A stretch of 64,000 nt of DNA from a virus. Shown one piece after another: positions 2,763-58,766 of this stretch (its first letter is position 1; each line of letters begins with the position of its first letter). The stretch lies in the UHGV virus genome UHGV-1378817; one strand, written 5' to 3'. A program made the translations under genes and the position numbers. Below the pieces are notes generated by a model. It had not been told where the DNA came from. It saw nothing but the letters and a program-made list of their open reading frames with translations, and searched no databases.

Positions 2763-2861
2763 GGTGCTAGGTGATGGAATCGAACCACCTATGTATTCAA
2801 CGACTACCTCGTCTATTTTCAGGATTAAAAATCCTCGCCCTTGCCAAAGGGCTTACCTAGC
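2763..2861 (-). tRNA. type II (long variable arm) tRNA-like gene, anticodon ambiguous
   Basis: Good acceptor stem (GCUAGGU/ACCUAGC), D-arm and T-arm (GGTTCGATTCC) plus a long variable arm, but the anticodon arm only forms a 4-bp stem with loop UUUUUAA; no encoded terminal A. Confidence 0.4.
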
Positions 2862-43148: not shown

Positions 43149-43454
43149 ATGGCTAAATCTAAAGTTGAACTGTTCACCTCTCTTCCTTCTGACACTGCAG
43201 AACGTGATCGCCTTCGCAAAACAATCGAAGAGCTGGTGGAACTCCAGCTTCAGATTAAAGATCTGAAAGATGCCATCAAGGATATCATTCTCGTTGAGAA
43301 GCAGGATCATCTGTATTCTCCTAAATTCATCAAATCTCTGGTGGCTACAGAGTTCGATATTCGCTATGAGGCTGAAAAACGTCGCGCTAAAATCGAAGAA
43401 GAGGTTGAGCACATGTCTGAGGCAGACATTCTGTTCAAACGCTCTGTAGAATAA
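43149..43454 (+). CDS. hypothetical coiled-coil protein
   Basis: 101-aa charged ORF with AAGGAG RBS. Confidence 0.4.
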   Translation: MAKSKVELFTSLPSDTAERDRLRKTIEELVELQLQIKDLKDAIKDIILVEKQDHLYSPKFIKSLVATEFDIRYEAEKRRAKIEEEVEHMSEADILFKRSVE

Positions 43455-44771: not shown

Positions 44772-45101
44772 TCAACACGCATGCATCTGAAGAGACATCT
44801 GAAGGAGTGACCATATGTCCATTGGCTGATCCAGTGAAAGGGGAAAACTTCGATTCTGAAGATTCTCCATCTTCGCTCCAGATAGATCCTGAGGCTGATG
44901 ACTTGACGTGGGGAGACATCGTAGATATCTGGTTCTCTATTATGCCTGAGCACGAAGAGTTCAGAGGTGGTAGACTATGAAGCACCGAGCCCACACAGGT
45001 TCCTCATGCTAAAGCATGGCCTGAAGAGGCAAACGTGCATAATTCCCGTGCATTGGAACGTATAAAACCCTGTTCACACTCTCATTTCCAGAGGAGATTT
45101 C

Positions 45102-45317
45102 ATGAAGATAGAAATATTTGGTGGGGCTGACAACACTCGTGGCCTGATTTACCTTGAATTTGATGAATCATACCTGCCAGAGGTGTTAAATATAGACTCT
45201 GTTGCTGAGGCTTTGGGAGTAAACCCTAAAGAACTCCACTCTTGTGCTGAGATCGATGGTTGGGAAGAGACCATGAACATTGATTTCAGTGAAGTAGAGG
45301 ACGAACCGCTGGACTGA
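45102..45317 (+). CDS. small acidic protein
   Basis: MKIEIFGG... 71 aa with GGAG RBS; last gene of the plus-strand block. Confidence 0.4.
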   Translation: MKIEIFGGADNTRGLIYLEFDESYLPEVLNIDSVAEALGVNPKELHSCAEIDGWEETMNIDFSEVEDEPLD

Positions 45318-45446
45318 CACACAATTAGCTGCCCGGCTAAAGTGCTGGAAGCGCACCTATAACACATCTTTCAACTAAATTTCCTACCACCACAATCACT
45401 TACCTCCAACACATGACTGTTTGCTTGTTTAGTGAGCAGTCATGCC

Positions 45447-45474
45447 TTGACATTCTTGCCTATCCTGATAAAAT
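45447..45474 (+). promoter_or_regulatory. sigma70-like promoter reading into a GC-rich non-coding segment
   Basis: TTGACA-16 nt-TAAAAT with no ORF downstream; followed by about 270 nt of unusually GC-rich sequence ending in a G-run and T-rich stretch near 45730-45760. Confidence 0.4.
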
Positions 45475-47725
45475 TAAGTTCTTCTCTTTTCTTTTACCGA
45501 GTAATTCGGGTTTTCTGTTCTCTTCGGTTTGAAGGGGTATGGAGATACACCTGAGTGAACAGGGTGAACAACCGAACCATTGGCTATGGCATTAGCATGG
45601 CGAAGCGGACGGGTGACGAAAGAGGGGCCGGAGGACACCAGTCACTGCCATATGATATATGGGTGATAACCTGAAGAGTCTGAATAAGTGTTTAAGTACC
45701 AGTCAGAGGAAAAGGTGAATGGTAGCCGAAGGGGGAGGGGGGTTTCTTGTATCTTTAATTTGTATATTATGTATACACTTGTAAACCAATATCATCTAGA
45801 TCTGTTTACCACACAAAGTGGATAGAGACAAATATTACCTATTAAACTTGAATTATTTATAGAAAATACCACAACACCACTTAAGTCTTTGATTTTACAC
45901 ACAAATCTTACAGATATTCAACCTCCATATTTAACATACCTGTAACATATTCCATACTCTACCTGCCTGATCAATTTCCCCAACTACATCCCTCATATTT
46001 CCCCTGTCTGTACTACCCTGCCCCACCGGGAGTCCCGTCATATCTGGCTTTCCAGCAAATATCACACCCACAAATATCATGCCTGAAGAGGGTTTCATCC
46101 CATAATACCTGCCTTGCCTGAAGAGCGCTTCATACACCACGTAAATTTTTTAATTGACCTCCCCTGCCCCGCCGGAGAGGTTGGCTTTTCCCACACAGAC
46201 CTGAAGAGTCAGCCAGAAATATCTGAATAGGCCCAGTTCTACCACGATTTTGACCTGACCTACAGGAGCGCTGCCAGGCGGACGAAATGGGAATACTTCT
46301 CATTCTTATAACAATTCTCAAATATCGAGGCAGTGAGGCAAATTAATAGGCCAGGCCGTTCACACAGTGGCACAACATTTGCAACCTATCTTGTGGGGGT
46401 GAATGAGAATACCTATCATTGTGAGAACCATTATCATTACGGGCAATTTAACATAATACCCATTATGCGCACCACTGGTGATACATACAGGGATTGATAA
46501 CACGAGTTACAGTTTACGCATATAACAATCATATTTCTTACTATTTGTGTGGGATATAGTTAGCAGCCGATAGATTAGATATTGACCTGTGGACTTCCAA
46601 CCGTCTAGACGTCTAAGCGCCCACACAACAAGGCTTATACATACATTACTGAATGTAAACAGGGCCGCAAAAATGCTACCATACCAGTTTGTAAATTTTC
46701 ATGCAGCACTTGACAAAGAGGAGGAAAACTTGTCTGACACAATGTCACACAATATGACACAATAACGGCTGTTACCATTCCATATCTCACTGTTTACGCA
46801 TAGACTGTTTACGCCTGGATAGTTTACACCTTGACAGTTTACACAGATATGATAAGCCATGACATTCGTTTGCATGAAAACAATTAGCAAGTTAACAATT
46901 AACAAGTTAATAATATATGACATAATATAAAAGCAGGGCAACTATTAGAAGATCTATAGTTGCCTTGCTTGTTATGTCATGATTAACTAAATACAAGGCA
47001 ACTATGATCTGATTAATAGTTTGCAGACAAACTATCACGGGGGTGATGGTTACTGCTTTTATATTATGTCGCGACTCCGTCGCGCCATGCCATTCGTTTG
47101 CATAGTTGCCTTATTGTTACAGATAAAATAATTGTATTGTTAATTATTTCTTATCTTTCTATTAGTCATCTAATGATTCCGGTTAGTATAGTAACGTACA
47201 GTAAACATTAGACGACTAAATATTTCTATGTTTATGATAACCTATCGTGACAATTCCGGACTGTTTACGAAAAATGTTGACACCTGAGCTGATTTATGTT
47301 ATGCAATTTAAACGAATAATTATTTTATGCAGGTATTGACTATTCCGTTATTCTATGGTTGGAATAAATACTTAGCAAGCTATAGAATGGTGAGCGTACG
47401 TAAATTCTGAGATTTGTCGGCTATAGTTATACTCGATTTTTCACGTAGAACACGCTTTTTGGTTTGTGTAAGTGTATGACTTATAAAGATTTTTAGTTGT
47501 TGACAAGATATTGAAGATGTGCATCAGGTTAAATTTTGTGCAATAGCTGCATTACGTGCAATTTTGGAAGGAAAACTGGTAAAAATAGCACCGATACCAC
47601 ACAATGAAAGGTTATGCAATAGCTATTTTATATGTATATTTGTACAGTGTGCAGGATTGATGGCTCGTCAATTATTCCACTTGCCAGGTAGGGCCGTTTA
47701 TGGTAGGGGAAGAGCAGACAAAAAG

Positions 47726-47744
47726 AAAGGGGCCTAAGCCCCTT
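47726..47744 (-). terminator. rho-independent terminator (minus strand)
   Basis: On the minus strand AAGGGGC-ttag-GCCCCTT followed by TCTTTTT, immediately downstream of the stop of ORF 47763-48182. Confidence 0.5.
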
Positions 47745-47762
47745 GATAATTCAGTTAAAAAA

Positions 47763-48182
47763 TTATAATGATTCGTATATTTCAAAAATCCGATTTGCCA
47801 GGTCGTTACGGTAGCGGAATTTTTCCTCACGTTTGATCATCAGATCTTTAAAGCCGTATTCTTTAAGCACTTCATTAACTTTATGGCGGCATACCTTCAT
47901 ATTATCTTGAGCGTCACCAATAAACTTGTTGCTGTGGTGCATTGCTTTAATTTCTTCTTCCAGGACCAGGGCAACTACCCGTACCGGATCAAGCTGGTAG
48001 GCGGTAACATCGATGCGGCATTGTAGACGGCTTTTAACGTCTGCCACCGGATATACTGCAACCTCTTCCCCGTCAACATTGACAATAATTAGTTTACCAT
48101 CGATTTCGAATCCTTTCGCCGCCGGACCGTGACAAAAAGCGTTATCAAAGCTATATGCCGGATTATTAGATTTAATGTTCAT
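47763..48182 (-). CDS. hypothetical protein
   Basis: 139-aa ORF. Confidence 0.45.
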   Translation of the reverse strand: MNIKSNNPAYSFDNAFCHGPAAKGFEIDGKLIIVNVDGEEVAVYPVADVKSRLQCRIDVTAYQLDPVRVVALVLEEEIKAMHHSNKFIGDAQDNMKVCRHKVNEVLKEYGFKDLMIKREEKFRYRNDLANRIFEIYESL

Positions 48183-57611: not shown

Positions 57612-57752
57612 TTATTTTAAATTATTTTTATGATAGAATCCACCTGCCGCCCCCGCCAGGTTAACCACCATTTTTTCGTACTCTTCTTTATGTTCTCGCG
57701 CTTCTGTATCATTAATCACTACATTTCCCAGGTGAGTAGCATTACCTTTCAT
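57612..57752 (-). CDS. hypothetical small protein (~46 aa)
   Basis: Manual translation MKGNATHLGNVVINDTEAREHKEEYEKMVVNLAGAAGGFYHKNNLK with GGAGGT RBS. Confidence 0.3.
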   Translation of the reverse strand: MKGNATHLGNVVINDTEAREHKEEYEKMVVNLAGAAGGFYHKNNLK

Positions 57753-58766
57753 TTTTGTACCTCCTCTTCAATTGTTTTCCCTACAGCATGGGCCTACCAG
57801 GTTTGCAAGATTTCACCCTCTCCCACCTGGTCAGTTAGGTCCTGCCAGGCTGGCCCCGCCAGGTTGCAACGGTTAGCGCATCAGGTTAGAAAAATTTTTT
57901 GAAAAGGTGTTGACAGCGGCCCCGCCAGGTGGCACAATATACCTATCGAAAGGACGGCAGGCACCGGTGACGGGGGAGACAACCACCGGGGATGGGCGCT
58001 GCATAAAATGAGAACGGTTATCATTATCATTTAAAAATTTATGCAAAAAATCCTTGCCTTCTTTGTCCTGTGTGATACTATAATAACAAGCCGGGGCAAC
58101 AGGGGCCGGGAGACAATCACCGGGCCTGCCCGTTATTCTGCAAACGAGAATGATTATCATTCAAAATTCTAAATGAGAACTCCTCGCATTTAATAAATTT
58201 AATTAGCACGCTAATTACCCTCCGTAACAATTTCCTATAAAATAGTATCCACTAAAATATTCCCATATAGAAATTTTAAAAATCCATTTCTGAAAACGAA
58301 AAATCGATTTCGTCCCCAAAAATTTCAGGTCGAGAGCTGGAACGATTTCCAGAAAATCCGATTCAGAAAACGAAAAACAGATCGAGTACTGAGAAATTTA
58401 TCGAGAAAAATTTTCAGAAAATTCAATCTTTGAAACGAAAAACAGATCGAGTACTTGGAAAGCTGTACCGCAACTTCAAGATAGTGGCTGGATTATTGCC
58501 ATAAAAGGCCAAGGGCGAGTGGGAAAGTTCTGGTAGAAGGGTGTGAGCATACGCGGAAAATCTGGAATGGTAGCCCGGAATATGACGCAAACGATAGGAT
58601 GAGTGGTTCAGCTCATCGTGTCTACCCTGAAAAATCCATTTTAGTTTTCGATCCGTTTTCTGATTTTCTAAGAATTTTAAAATATCTGGCCTGGTGAAAT
58701 ATCAAAAAGGAGGAAATCCATTTTAGAAATCCCCCTTATACTTGATATGCCAGAAATTTTCAAGTA
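57753..58766. repeat. 1-kb ORF-free, repeat-rich intergenic region
   Basis: No credible ORF; GCCCCGCCAGGT(T/G) repeats, two tandem paralogous units, 68-bp-spaced direct repeats, AAATCCATTT motifs; itemised in findings. Confidence 0.55.

What the first reader, a model, noticed from the sequence alone, without database searches (positions are those of the whole stretch)
45320..47760. 2.4-kb ORF-free region with several repeat families between convergent gene blocks
Coding density elsewhere is above 90 percent, yet this region has no credible ORF. It carries four CCTGAAGAG copies (about 45670, 46082, 46117, 46200), two CCCTGCCCC(R)CCGG(G)AG copies (46014, 46158), three tandem GACACAAT copies (46735-46768), four GTTTAC(G/A)C iterons at 14-15 bp spacing (46791-46844) with further copies near 45804, 46512 and 47262, duplicated CATG(A/C)CATTCGTTTGCAT boxes (46859, 47087), GGCAACTAT/ATAGTTGCC inverted repeats (46941-47110), and two adjacent GAGAAYNNTTATCATT motifs (46405-46438). 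Iterons, inverted repeats and AT-rich stretches together are what a replication origin or packaging/terminal site looks like.
Basis: seen in the sequence. Interest (0 to 1): 0.75.

Follow-up and report, generated by a model that had tools for sequence, protein, structure and literature searches.

The report
Phage genome ends and terminal repeat
The gene-free 2.4 kb stretch is where the two physical ends of this rV5-like phage chromosome meet: it carries the 458-bp repeat found at both ends of the packaged DNA, plus repeat arrays, a long palindrome and an unusually conserved promoter-driven element, so it is largely a known kind of feature with a few undescribed details.

Summary
The window is an rV5-like coliphage (Vequintavirus). 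The repeats are real and the region has no conserved ORF. It is the "non-coding" box drawn in the 2013 rV5 paper.

What it is: the genome's terminal region (concatemer junction).
- The close relative HdK5 has an identical 459 bp at both ends of its record. Its authors set those ends where PacBio reads stopped.
- The ends map to window 46277 (GGCGGACGAAATGGG...) and 46734 (...GGAAAACTTGTC).
- At least six Vequintavirus records break at these two points.
- The same end sequences occur in two other genera: KPP-1 (514 bp, PhageTerm) and a Hena1-length contig (519 bp).

The "origin" option remains untested.

Anatomy across 18 genomes:
- The GACAYAAT and GTTTACRC arrays start at the first base after the repeat. 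They are hypervariable, with 2 to about 11 iteron copies.
- A 152-nt palindrome follows. Its arms covary across genera, but it is deleted in phage FV3.
- At 45481-45743, a roughly 263-nt element behind a sigma-70-type promoter is 99-100% conserved, against about 91% for the neighbouring gene. It ends in GGGGGAGGGGGG followed by AT-rich DNA. It is an undescribed candidate RNA gene.

Main feature: already known kind. Interest is modest.

The parts
45320..47762 (.). ORF-free terminal region (concatemer junction) between convergent gene blocks. It is the 'non-coding' box of the rV5 genome map.
   Evidence: Curated records annotate nothing here. rV5 paper, Fig. 2 legend.
45447..45474 (+). Sigma-70-type promoter: TTGACA, 16-nt spacer, TG-n-TAAAAT (11 of 12 matches, extended -10).
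   Evidence: In one divergent genome (IMG2) the spacer carries 8 substitutions and a 2-nt insertion, yet both hexamers are intact.
45481..45743 (+). Ultra-conserved element of about 263 nt, a candidate non-coding RNA or cis element. It starts at the predicted transcription start and ends at a G tract.
   Evidence: Identity to the window is 0.99-1.00 across 18 genomes, against about 0.91 for the adjacent gene. It is 97-99.7% identical in 119 records. Only about 14 columns vary. No Rfam, E. coli or other-genus match. The 18-codon mini-ORF loses its ATG in 3 of 18 genomes.
45497..45519 (+). Small hairpin CCGAGTAATTCGG followed by a T run (terminator-like or attenuator-like), about 16 nt after the predicted start.
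   Evidence: Invariant in 18 genomes.
45731..45742 (+). GGGGGAGGGGGG tract marking the 3' edge of the conserved element. The next 100 nt are AT-rich (GC 0.26-0.31) in all 17 genomes where the tract was matched, even where the sequence has diverged.
45840..46276 (+). C-rich, G-poor segment next to the right genome end. It carries CCTGAAGAG (46082, 46117, 46200) and CCCTGCCCC(R)CCGG (46013, 46159).
   Evidence: GC skew reaches -0.48. Motif statistics. CCTGAAGAGTCA, a C5-N-C5 tract and a C-rich stretch also lie left of the terminal repeat in KPP-1 and other genera.
46277..46734 (.). Direct terminal repeat (458 bp). The left genome end starts at 46277 (GGCGGACGAAATGGG). The right genome end stops at 46734 (...TTGACAAAGAGGAGGAAAACTTGTC).
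   Evidence: HdK5's first 459 bp equal its last 459 bp and map here. Korf et al. 2019. Other records break at the same two points. Boundary sequences are conserved in all 18 genomes and in KPP-1 and the Hena1-length contig.
46405..46438 (+). Two adjacent operator-like imperfect palindromes, GAGAAYNNTTATCATT, inside the terminal repeat.
   Evidence: 4 hits in the window against 0.08 expected; the other two are at 58010 and 58146. Related motifs occur in the KPP-1 terminal repeat and flank its palindrome.
46446..46472 (+). Motif conserved across the subfamily inside the terminal repeat: ATTTAACATAAWAC(N3-5)TTATRCGCAC.
   Evidence: Found in 21 IMG/VR loci spanning several Vequintavirinae genera.
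46735..46768 (+). Array of about 10-bp (T/A)GACAYNNT units that begins at the first base after the terminal repeat.
   Evidence: 3-7 units in relatives, sequence hypervariable. The unit equals the first 8 nt of the palindrome arm.
46789..46848 (+). Four 15-bp iterons, ACTGTTTACRC-N4.
   Evidence: Copy number runs from 2 to about 11 in relatives, with 15-bp indels. TTGACAGTTTACAC is shared with KPP-1.
46856..46875 (+). Box GCCATGACATTCGTTTGCAT, first copy of a 20-nt direct repeat.
   Evidence: D10. Conserved in relatives.
46878..46914 (+). Tandem 15-mers AACAATTARCAAGTT (2.4 copies).
   Evidence: Copy number and sequence vary in relatives.
46919..47070 (.). 152-nt palindrome: an 18-bp perfect outer stem enclosing nested GGCAACTAT/ATAGTTGCC arms and a side hairpin.
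   Evidence: I1, I8, I15. Folding z-scores are -10.8 to -11.7 as DNA or as RNA on either strand. Analogous perfect inverted repeats with 13-22-nt arms and different sequences lie right of the terminal repeat in 15 other loci of several genera. The control maximum is 11 nt in 300 windows. The palindrome is deleted in FV3.
47068..47086 (+). GC box GTCGCGACTCCGTCGCGCC directly after the palindrome.
   Evidence: A related ...TCGCGCCA... box follows the palindrome in other genera.
47084..47103 (+). Box GCCATGCCATTCGTTTGCAT, second copy of the 20-nt direct repeat. The FV3 deletion has its end-points in the two boxes.
47105..47726 (.). AT-rich (GC 0.32-0.37) ORF-free stretch between the palindrome and the first gene of the left arm.
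   Evidence: (0.84-0.98 conserved).
47727..47744 (-). Intrinsic terminator that closes the leftward gene block (AAGGGGCTTAGGCCCCTT followed by a T run).
   Evidence: Corresponds to terminator t164 of the rV5 paper's supplement.

Best explanation
The region is the terminal region, or concatemer junction, of a Vequintavirus (rV5-like) genome. Positions 46277-46734 are the 458-bp direct terminal repeat (DTR) that sits at both ends of the packaged linear chromosome.

Shown for relatives, and inferred here from identical boundary sequences: virion DNA has fixed ends. The left end starts at GCTGCCA|GGCGGAC. The right end stops at ...TTGACA-N19, that is CTTGTC|TGACA.

Inferred by analogy with T7-type phages:
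- In the cell the genome forms head-to-tail concatemers that carry one repeat copy per junction.
- The terminase cuts at the two fixed sites.
- The repeat is re-synthesised so that each virion gets two copies.

Both flanking gene blocks are transcribed towards the ends and stop here. This explains the lack of genes and the switch in strand composition.

The sequences flanking the repeat are cis-acting accessory sites whose individual roles are not shown. They comprise the hypervariable GACAYAAT and GTTTACRC arrays that begin exactly at the right boundary, the conserved box-palindrome-GC-box module, and the CCTGAAGAG and C-tract motifs on the left. Most likely they are binding sites for packaging, replication or regulatory proteins.

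A separate unit lies 0.5-0.8 kb left of the repeat: a host-type promoter driving an almost invariant 263-nt element, probably a non-coding RNA.
For: Identity and literature:
- 122 phage records match at 90-96% identity, all Vequintavirus.
- The rV5 paper shows a 'non-coding' box between convergent genes 163 and 164.
- Korf et al. report 458-bp terminal redundancies for HdK5 and EdH4. They set the ends where most PacBio reads 'ended abruptly'.

Mapping to the window:
- The HdK5 record's first 459 bp equal its last 459 bp. The ends map to window 46277 and 46734.
- Records from other laboratories break at the same two points (query positions 958 and 1415). Each of these records matches the query at two places.
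- More than ten records start about 1.5-2.1 kb before the 87-aa gene.

Same ends in other genera:
- KPP-1: a 514-bp repeat supported by two-fold read coverage and PhageTerm, classed as T7-type. It starts GACGGAC and ends TTGACA-N18.
- A 148,842-bp contig has an identical 519 bp at both ends with the same two motifs.
- A motif internal to the repeat is found in 21 loci across the subfamily.

Conservation follows the repeat boundaries:
- It is high inside the repeat and collapses at base 46735, from 0.98 to 0.41-0.67.
- It resumes about 10 nt before 46277.
- In the Mydovirus/Seunavirus alignment the repeat is the best-conserved segment.

The region has no conserved ORF.
Against: - No reads or virion DNA from this isolate were available. 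The ends are inferred by homology.
- One paper reports headful (pac-type) packaging by PhageTerm for a Vequintavirus assembled from a phage cocktail.
- Some records that start at the repeat may simply have been re-oriented to match earlier records, so they are not all independent.
- Nothing here shows which protein binds which repeat.
- The arrays vary greatly in copy number and the palindrome is missing in FV3. Some of these elements are therefore dispensable, and their link to packaging is only positional.
Confidence: 0.85

Rival explanations
1. Iteron-type replication origin. A phage or host initiator binds the GTTTACRC iterons and/or the GGCAACTAT palindromes and melts the neighbouring AT-rich DNA. 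This could hold in addition to the terminal-repeat role.
For: - Four phased iterons, palindromes and 0.32-0.35 GC DNA lie next to each other.
- The strand-composition switch noted in the rV5 paper falls here.
- The box-palindrome-GC-box module is kept in several genera.
Against: - Iteron number ranges from 2 to about 11 among phages that are 90-96% identical, and the iteron sequence drifts.
- The 15-bp spacing is not a whole number of helical turns.
- No initiator-like gene adjoins the region. Flanking proteins have no informative Pfam domain.
- FV3 lacks the whole palindrome.
- The skew switch is equally explained by the change in transcription direction.
Confidence: 0.25
2. Transcription-primed (R-loop) origin. 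Host RNA polymerase starts at the 45447-45474 promoter. The transcript's GGGGGAGGGGGG tract anchors a stable RNA-DNA hybrid at 45731-45742, and the AT-rich DNA downstream opens for leading-strand synthesis.
For: - The promoter hexamers are conserved while the spacer is free to vary.
- Invariance starts at the predicted start site and stops at the G tract.
- The next 100 nt are AT-rich in every genome with the tract, despite sequence divergence.
- From the rV5 paper, the phage has a primase/helicase with T7-gp4-like domains.
Against: - There is no experimental support.
- The element is absent from other genera of the subfamily, so it cannot be the ancestral origin.
- The predicted fold is not unusually stable (z = -1.3).
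- A 263-nt invariant RNA is more than a simple primer would need.
Confidence: 0.12
3. Headful (pac) packaging. The region holds a pac site from which packaging series start, giving permuted, terminally redundant DNA rather than fixed ends.
For: A PhageTerm call of headful packaging for phage BpE1AUH, assembled from a cocktail.
Against: - An identical fixed repeat of 458-519 bp with the same end sequences is found in three genera, from PacBio read ends, PhageTerm plus coverage, and deposited records.
- Conservation discontinuities fall exactly at both boundaries.
Confidence: 0.05
4. Mere transcription-convergence spacer: leftover DNA between two gene blocks, with chance or slippage repeats and no function.
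For: - The gene blocks are convergent and a terminator sits at 47727-47744.
- Part of the region (46740-46920) evolves fast by slippage.
Against: - Several blocks are more conserved than the adjacent gene.
- Motifs and architecture are kept across genera whose flanking genes have diverged to 20-50% identity.
Confidence: 0.03

Closest known systems
Short terminal redundancy of Vequintavirus phages HdK5 and EdH4 (Korf et al. 2019, PMC6563267)
   Same: Same genus, with the same sequence at the two ends. The 458/459-bp repeat maps to window 46277-46734.
   Different: The paper gives only the length. It does not place the repeat in the rV5 'non-coding' box, and does not describe the cut-site motifs, the flanking arrays, the palindrome or the conserved element.
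T7-type direct terminal repeats and concatemer junction
   Same: Fixed ends with a short exact repeat. There is one copy per concatemer junction, and the repeat is re-synthesised at packaging (general description in PMC10438801). PhageTerm classes the relative KPP-1 as T7-type. From memory, not tested here: the T7 repeat is also flanked by arrays of short imperfect repeats, and a hairpin-forming sequence near the junction has been implicated in end processing.
   Different: This is a myovirus of about 137 kb with no phage RNA polymerase. Its genes point outward towards both ends, whereas in T7 they point inward from the left end. The repeat is three times longer. There is no sequence similarity.
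Klebsiella phage KPP-1 514-bp direct terminal repeat (PMC9862379) and other Vequintavirinae
   Same: Same position at the convergent junction. The end motifs (G(A/G)CGGAC...; TTGACA-N18-19), the internal motif, the C tract on the left and the palindrome plus GC box on the right are all shared.
   Different: No multi-copy GTTTAC iteron array (a single TTGACAGTTTACAC) and no counterpart of the 45481-45743 element.
Iteron origins (lambda ori, plasmid oriV)
   Same: Tandem direct repeats next to AT-rich DNA.
   Different: 15-bp period, labile copy number and no adjacent initiator gene.
R-loop primer systems (ColE1 RNA II, T4 oriF/oriG, mitochondrial CSB II); recalled from memory
   Same: A promoter, then a transcript ending at a G-rich tract, then easily melted DNA. 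G5AG6 resembles the G-run/A/G-run form of CSB II.
   Different: The resemblance is only formal. There is no homology and no evidence of hybrid formation.

Membership tests
Short direct-terminal-repeat (T7-type) genome ends | The same sequence is present at both physical ends of the virion DNA. | tested here: met
   Tested on relatives. HdK5's first 459 bp equal its last 459 bp. A 148,842-bp contig has 519 bp identical at both ends. The window carries the single collapsed copy at 46277-46734.
Short direct-terminal-repeat (T7-type) genome ends | Ends are fixed, not permuted (reads stop at defined bases). | not testable with these tools
   No reads were available. The literature supports it: PacBio reads 'ended abruptly' and PhageTerm gave T7-type for KPP-1. 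One contrary headful call exists.
Short direct-terminal-repeat (T7-type) genome ends | About two-fold read coverage over the repeat. | not testable with these tools
   Reported for KPP-1 at 116,316-116,829.
Short direct-terminal-repeat (T7-type) genome ends | Sequence-specific, conserved cut sites. | tested here: met
   The left end starts G(A/G)CGGAC. The right end lies 24-25 nt after the start of TTGACA, and the next bases are T(A/G)(G/A)CA. This holds in three genera with independently determined ends. Both boundary sequences are invariant in 18 Vequintavirus genomes.
Short direct-terminal-repeat (T7-type) genome ends | Terminase belonging to a clade associated with exact-repeat packaging. 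| not tested
   The rV5 supplement lists TerL as Terminase_6 and KPP10-like. No phylogeny was made.
Iteron-type replication origin | Several direct repeats in helical phase that bind an initiator. | tested here: inconclusive
   There are four repeats, but with a 15-bp period, and the copy number runs from 2 to about 11 in relatives. Binding cannot be tested.
Iteron-type replication origin | Adjacent AT-rich unwinding region. | tested here: met
   GC is 0.32-0.35 from 46750 to 47650.
Iteron-type replication origin | Initiator gene at or next to the origin. | tested here: not met
   There is no ORF inside the region. Flanking proteins have no informative domain.
Iteron-type replication origin | Origin activity. 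| not testable with these tools
   Needs an experiment.
Described RNA families (Rfam 15) | Match to a covariance model. | tested here: not met
   No hit with E-value up to 5 in 45200-47900 on either strand. The window contains only tRNAs at gathering score.

The most novel reading that the evidence does not exclude
Positions 45481-45743 encode a Vequintavirus-specific non-coding RNA of about 263 nt that has not been described. It is transcribed by host RNA polymerase from a consensus promoter about 0.8 kb from the right genome end. It is kept almost invariant in more than 100 phages whose neighbouring genes differ by 8-10%. It either acts in trans on host or phage targets, or acts in cis by seeding an R-loop at its G5AG6 end to prime replication near the terminus.
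Probability: 0.3. Interest if true: 0.6.

Novelty: already known. Interest (0 to 1): 0.35.

Why it matters
rV5-like phages are common in E. coli phage-therapy and biocontrol cocktails. Yet most of their database records are opened at arbitrary points and leave this region blank.

Knowing that the blank box holds the true ends and the terminal repeat has practical uses:
- It fixes genome orientation and length.
- It tells engineers which sequences must be kept for rebooting or packaging synthetic genomes.
- It explains the unexplained "non-coding" box of the type phage.

The end motifs conserved across the subfamily give a simple rule for finding the termini of any Vequintavirinae genome from sequence alone.

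The invariant promoter-driven element is a concrete, cheaply testable candidate for a new phage RNA.

Tried and rejected
- Rfam, at gathering score over the whole window and at E-value up to 5 over the region: tRNAs only.
- Protein-coding explanation: rejected by the ORF-intactness and codon-position test, and by the PHROG scan.
- The 18-codon mini-ORF in the conserved element: rejected, because its ATG is lost in 3 of 18 genomes.
- Host mimicry: no E. coli genome matches the conserved element.
- Homologues of the conserved element in other genera: none. A short resemblance I noted by eye to the Certrevirus left-end sequence (GCATGGCGAA) was not backed by that search.
- RNA-structure support for the element: weak. 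The fold z-score is -1.3, and only two or three one-sided pair-preserving changes were seen.
- The 101-aa gene at 43149-43454 as a synteny anchor: failed. In KPP-1 it lies 36 kb from the terminal repeat.
- A 22-mer scan of IMG/VR gave only two loci. A degenerate motif from inside the repeat worked instead.
- Fur-box reading of GAGAAYNNTTATCATT: the best matches have 2 mismatches in 14, so it stays a resemblance only.
- CCTGAAGAG as a -35/spacer element of a promoter class: -10-like hexamers lie about 10 nt downstream at 45020, 46082 and 46200 and at two KPP-1 sites, but not at 45670 or 46117. Unresolved.
- Literature search for Vequintavirus transcriptomes: nothing found. A search for T7 pacB returned PacBio papers.
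Full report
IDENTITY OF THE WINDOW

The 2.4-kb interval matches 122 phage records, and 98 of them cover at least 80% of it at 90-96% identity. All are Vequintavirus, the rV5-like myoviruses of E. coli. The 'Campylobacter phage' entries among them are unverified records that NCBI files under the same genus.

Carefully annotated records (rV5, the BASEL collection phages, FV3) leave the interval empty. A few automatically annotated ones fill it with small ORFs that differ from record to record.

The rV5 genome paper shows it as a grey box 'labeled non-coding [that] contained no ORFs', between convergent genes 163 and 164. [quoted passage not shown]

CHECK OF THE OBSERVATION

The repeats are present as described, with small corrections:
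- CCTGAAGAG: four copies in the interval and a fifth at 45020, all on the + strand. The window holds 8 copies against 0.63 expected, and the other three lie inside long ORFs.
- GTTTACRC: four copies at exactly 15-bp spacing.
- GACACAAT: two exact copies around a TCACACAAT unit.
- The 20-nt CATGMCATTCGTTTGCAT boxes lie 228 bp apart.
- GGCAACTAT: four exact 9-mers in both orientations.
- GAGAAYNNTTATCATT: two adjacent copies.

Its fold is far more stable than shuffled sequence, with z-scores of -10.8 to -11.7 as DNA or as RNA on either strand.

The absence of genes holds up in an alignment of 18 genomes:
- The neighbouring 71-aa gene is intact in 17 of 17, with 4/4/20 variable columns by codon position.
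- The five longest ORFs in the interval (58-80 aa) are intact in 1-3 of 18. Two others are intact in 8-9 of 18.
- Three small ORFs survive only because they lie in the near-invariant block described below.
- None shows any codon-position bias.
- The five ORFs I scanned hit no PHROG family.

WHAT THE REGION IS

The lead came from where database records begin and end. Several independent Vequintavirus records break inside the interval, at just two positions: query 958 and query 1415, which are window 46277 and 46734. Each of those records matches the query at two places.

Korf et al. [quoted passage not shown] I checked the HdK5 record. Its first 459 bases are identical to its last 459. The left end maps to window 46277 (GGCGGACGAAATGGG...) and the right end to 46734 (...GGAAAACTTGTC). 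More than ten further records start 1.5-2.1 kb before the conserved 87-aa gene, which is about where the repeat's left end lies.

The interval therefore contains the direct terminal repeat (DTR) and both physical ends of the chromosome. In a collapsed assembly such as this window, the repeat appears once, between the right arm (genes on +, ending at 45317) and the left arm (genes on -, ending at 47763).

THE SAME ENDS ACROSS THE SUBFAMILY

Klebsiella phage KPP-1 (Mydovirus) has a 514-bp repeat at 116,316-116,829, shown by two-fold coverage and PhageTerm, which classed it as T7-type. It lies at the same convergent junction. It starts GACGGAC and ends TTGACAAGGAGAGAGAATTGTGTT.

A motif inside the repeat, ATTTAACATAAWAC(N3-5)TTATRCGCAC, retrieved 21 IMG/VR loci. 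The 148,842-bp contig has an identical 519 bp at both ends. It starts GACGGACAACC and ends TTGACAGGAAGATAGAAAAGTGTT.

So three genera have independently determined ends, and all follow one rule:
- The left end begins G(A/G)CGGAC.
- The right end lies 24-25 nt after the start of a TTGACA.
- The next bases in the concatemer are T(A/G)(G/A)CA.

Certrevirus-like loci and Septuagintavirus A5-4 carry variant candidates, GCTGCCA|GGCATGGC... and TTGACA-N19. Their ends have not been determined.

In the Mydovirus/Seunavirus alignment the repeat is the best-conserved segment (0.82-0.94), while flanking genes fall to 0.2-0.5.

FINE ANATOMY FROM 18 VEQUINTAVIRUS GENOMES

(a) The terminal repeat is 0.92-0.98 conserved. 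Conservation resumes about 10 nt before the left boundary, after a variable stretch with insertions. At the right boundary it collapses, from 0.98 to 0.41-0.67.

(b) From the first base after the repeat come two copy-number-variable arrays:
- 3-7 units of about 10 bp, (T/A)GACAYNNT.
- 2 to about 11 units of 15 bp, ACTGTTYACRC-N4. The window has 4, rV5 about 11, and C7 has 2.
The alignment shows indels of 15 bp and multiples of it.

(c) A conserved box, GATGATAAGCCATGMCATTCGTTTGCATGA, follows. After it come variable AACAATTARCAAGTT 15-mers and an optional GC-rich hairpin that is absent from this window.

(d) The 152-nt palindrome, a GC box (GTCGCGACTCCGTCGCGCC) and the second copy of the 20-nt box follow.
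- Analogous perfect inverted repeats (arms 13-22 nt, spacer 71-204 nt) lie right of the repeat in 15 other loci from several genera. In most, a GC-rich box related to ...TCGCGCCA... follows.
- The arm sequences differ between genera but stay perfectly complementary. Examples are GACATAATATAAAAGCAG, GACACTATAAAACGAG and AGCGACACAATAACACGGGAG.
- In 300 control windows of 650 nt, the longest perfect inverted repeat never exceeded 11 nt.
- FV3 lacks the whole module. Its deletion has end-points in the two 20-nt boxes. The palindrome is therefore conserved but not essential, if that record is correct.

(e) Left of the repeat lies a C-rich, G-poor stretch (GC skew down to -0.48). It carries CCTGAAGAG and CCCTGCCCC motifs.
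- KPP-1 and other genera have a C5-N-C5 tract 90-145 bp left of their repeat, and the same CCTGAAGAGTCA word.
- In KPP-1 that word overlaps promoter-like TTGACC-N17-TATACT sites. In the window, -10-like hexamers follow three of the five copies. This hints at a promoter class, unproven.

AN UNNOTICED ELEMENT

Positions 45420-45743 are 0.99-1.00 conserved in the 18 genomes, against about 0.91 for the adjacent gene. The element is 97-99.7% identical in 119 records.

A near-consensus promoter lies at 45447-45474: TTGACA, 16 nt, TG-n-TAAAAT. In the most divergent genome its spacer has eight substitutions and a 2-nt insertion, yet both hexamers are untouched. Invariance begins at about 45481, the predicted start site.

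Invariance ends at GGGGGAGGGGGG (45731-45742). After the tract the sequence diverges but stays AT-rich, at GC 0.26-0.31 in the 17 genomes where the tract was matched.

Evidence bearing on what it is:
- The small ORFs inside show no codon-position bias.
- The only ORF with a Shine-Dalgarno-like sequence loses its ATG in three genomes.
- There is no match in Rfam, in 5,426 E. coli genomes or in other genera.
- The predicted RNA fold is not exceptional (z = -1.3). The few variable sites give only weak one-sided support for a + strand structure.

I read this as a probable non-coding RNA gene or transcription-dependent cis element of unknown role.

MECHANISM

Shown for relatives and carried over by sequence identity: fixed ends and a 458-bp exact repeat.

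Inferred from what is established for T7-type phages (summarised in PMC10438801):
- Concatemers carry one repeat per junction.
- Terminase cuts at the two conserved sites.
- The repeat is duplicated by synthesis.

Inferred from position and conservation only: the flanking arrays, boxes, palindrome and operator-like sites are binding sites for packaging, replication or regulatory proteins. The hypervariable arrays are either fast co-evolving or largely dispensable.

An origin function for the iteron/palindrome module or for the promoter/G-tract/AT-rich unit remains possible. It is compatible with the terminal-repeat role, but nothing here demonstrates it.

VERDICT

The kind of feature, and its existence in this genus, are already in the literature, although nobody has tied it to the rV5 non-coding box or described its parts. 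Interest is modest. The invariant promoter-driven element is the one item that could be new.

Noticed in passing
window 57750-58750: A second ORF-poor region holds two tandem units. Each is a sigma-70-like promoter (TTGACA at 57911; TTGCCT...TGTGATACTATAAT at about 58054-58086), then a GC-rich segment of 70-80 nt, then the same GAGAAYNNTTATCATT motif found inside the terminal repeat (58010, 58146). These may be small RNA genes or regulated promoters that share an operator with the terminal repeat.
   Followed up: partly
window 47763-48182 (- strand): The 139-aa gene next to the terminal region is missing from HdK5, FV3 and WM, where the 87-aa gene comes first. It is therefore a variable accessory gene. 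It has no Pfam domain.
   Followed up: partly
L009 (FV3) versus window 46876-47103: FV3 has a 228-bp deletion with end-points in the two 20-nt CATGMCATTCGTTTGCAT direct repeats. It removes the whole palindrome, making FV3 a natural deletion mutant, or else an assembly error in an older record.
   Followed up: partly
window 46912/46913 and 46971 (insertion points in relatives): Most relatives carry an extra GC-rich hairpin (CGCTGGCTATGCCAGGTGACC...GGTCACCCCTTCGGG) just before the palindrome. rV5, C7 and A135 carry a 33-nt insertion inside it. Both are absent from this window.
   Followed up: no
window 2763-2861 (- strand): Within the seven-gene tRNA cluster, ARAGORN reports a 99-nt tRNA of undetermined type with a four-base anticodon (atcc). 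Rfam scores it only 35.5 bits. It may be an intron-containing or degenerate tRNA.
   Followed up: no
window 43149-43454 (+ strand): This 101-aa protein is at least 99% identical in 115 phage records and is variously annotated as a transcriptional regulator or dsDNA-binding protein. In KPP-1 its homologue lies 36 kb from the terminal repeat, so the right-arm gene order is not conserved between genera.
   Followed up: no
phage collection records MG0656xx: About 19 records named 'Campylobacter phage' (several marked UNVERIFIED) are 87-94% identical to this E. coli phage region, and NCBI classifies them as Vequintavirus. The host label is probably wrong.
   Followed up: no
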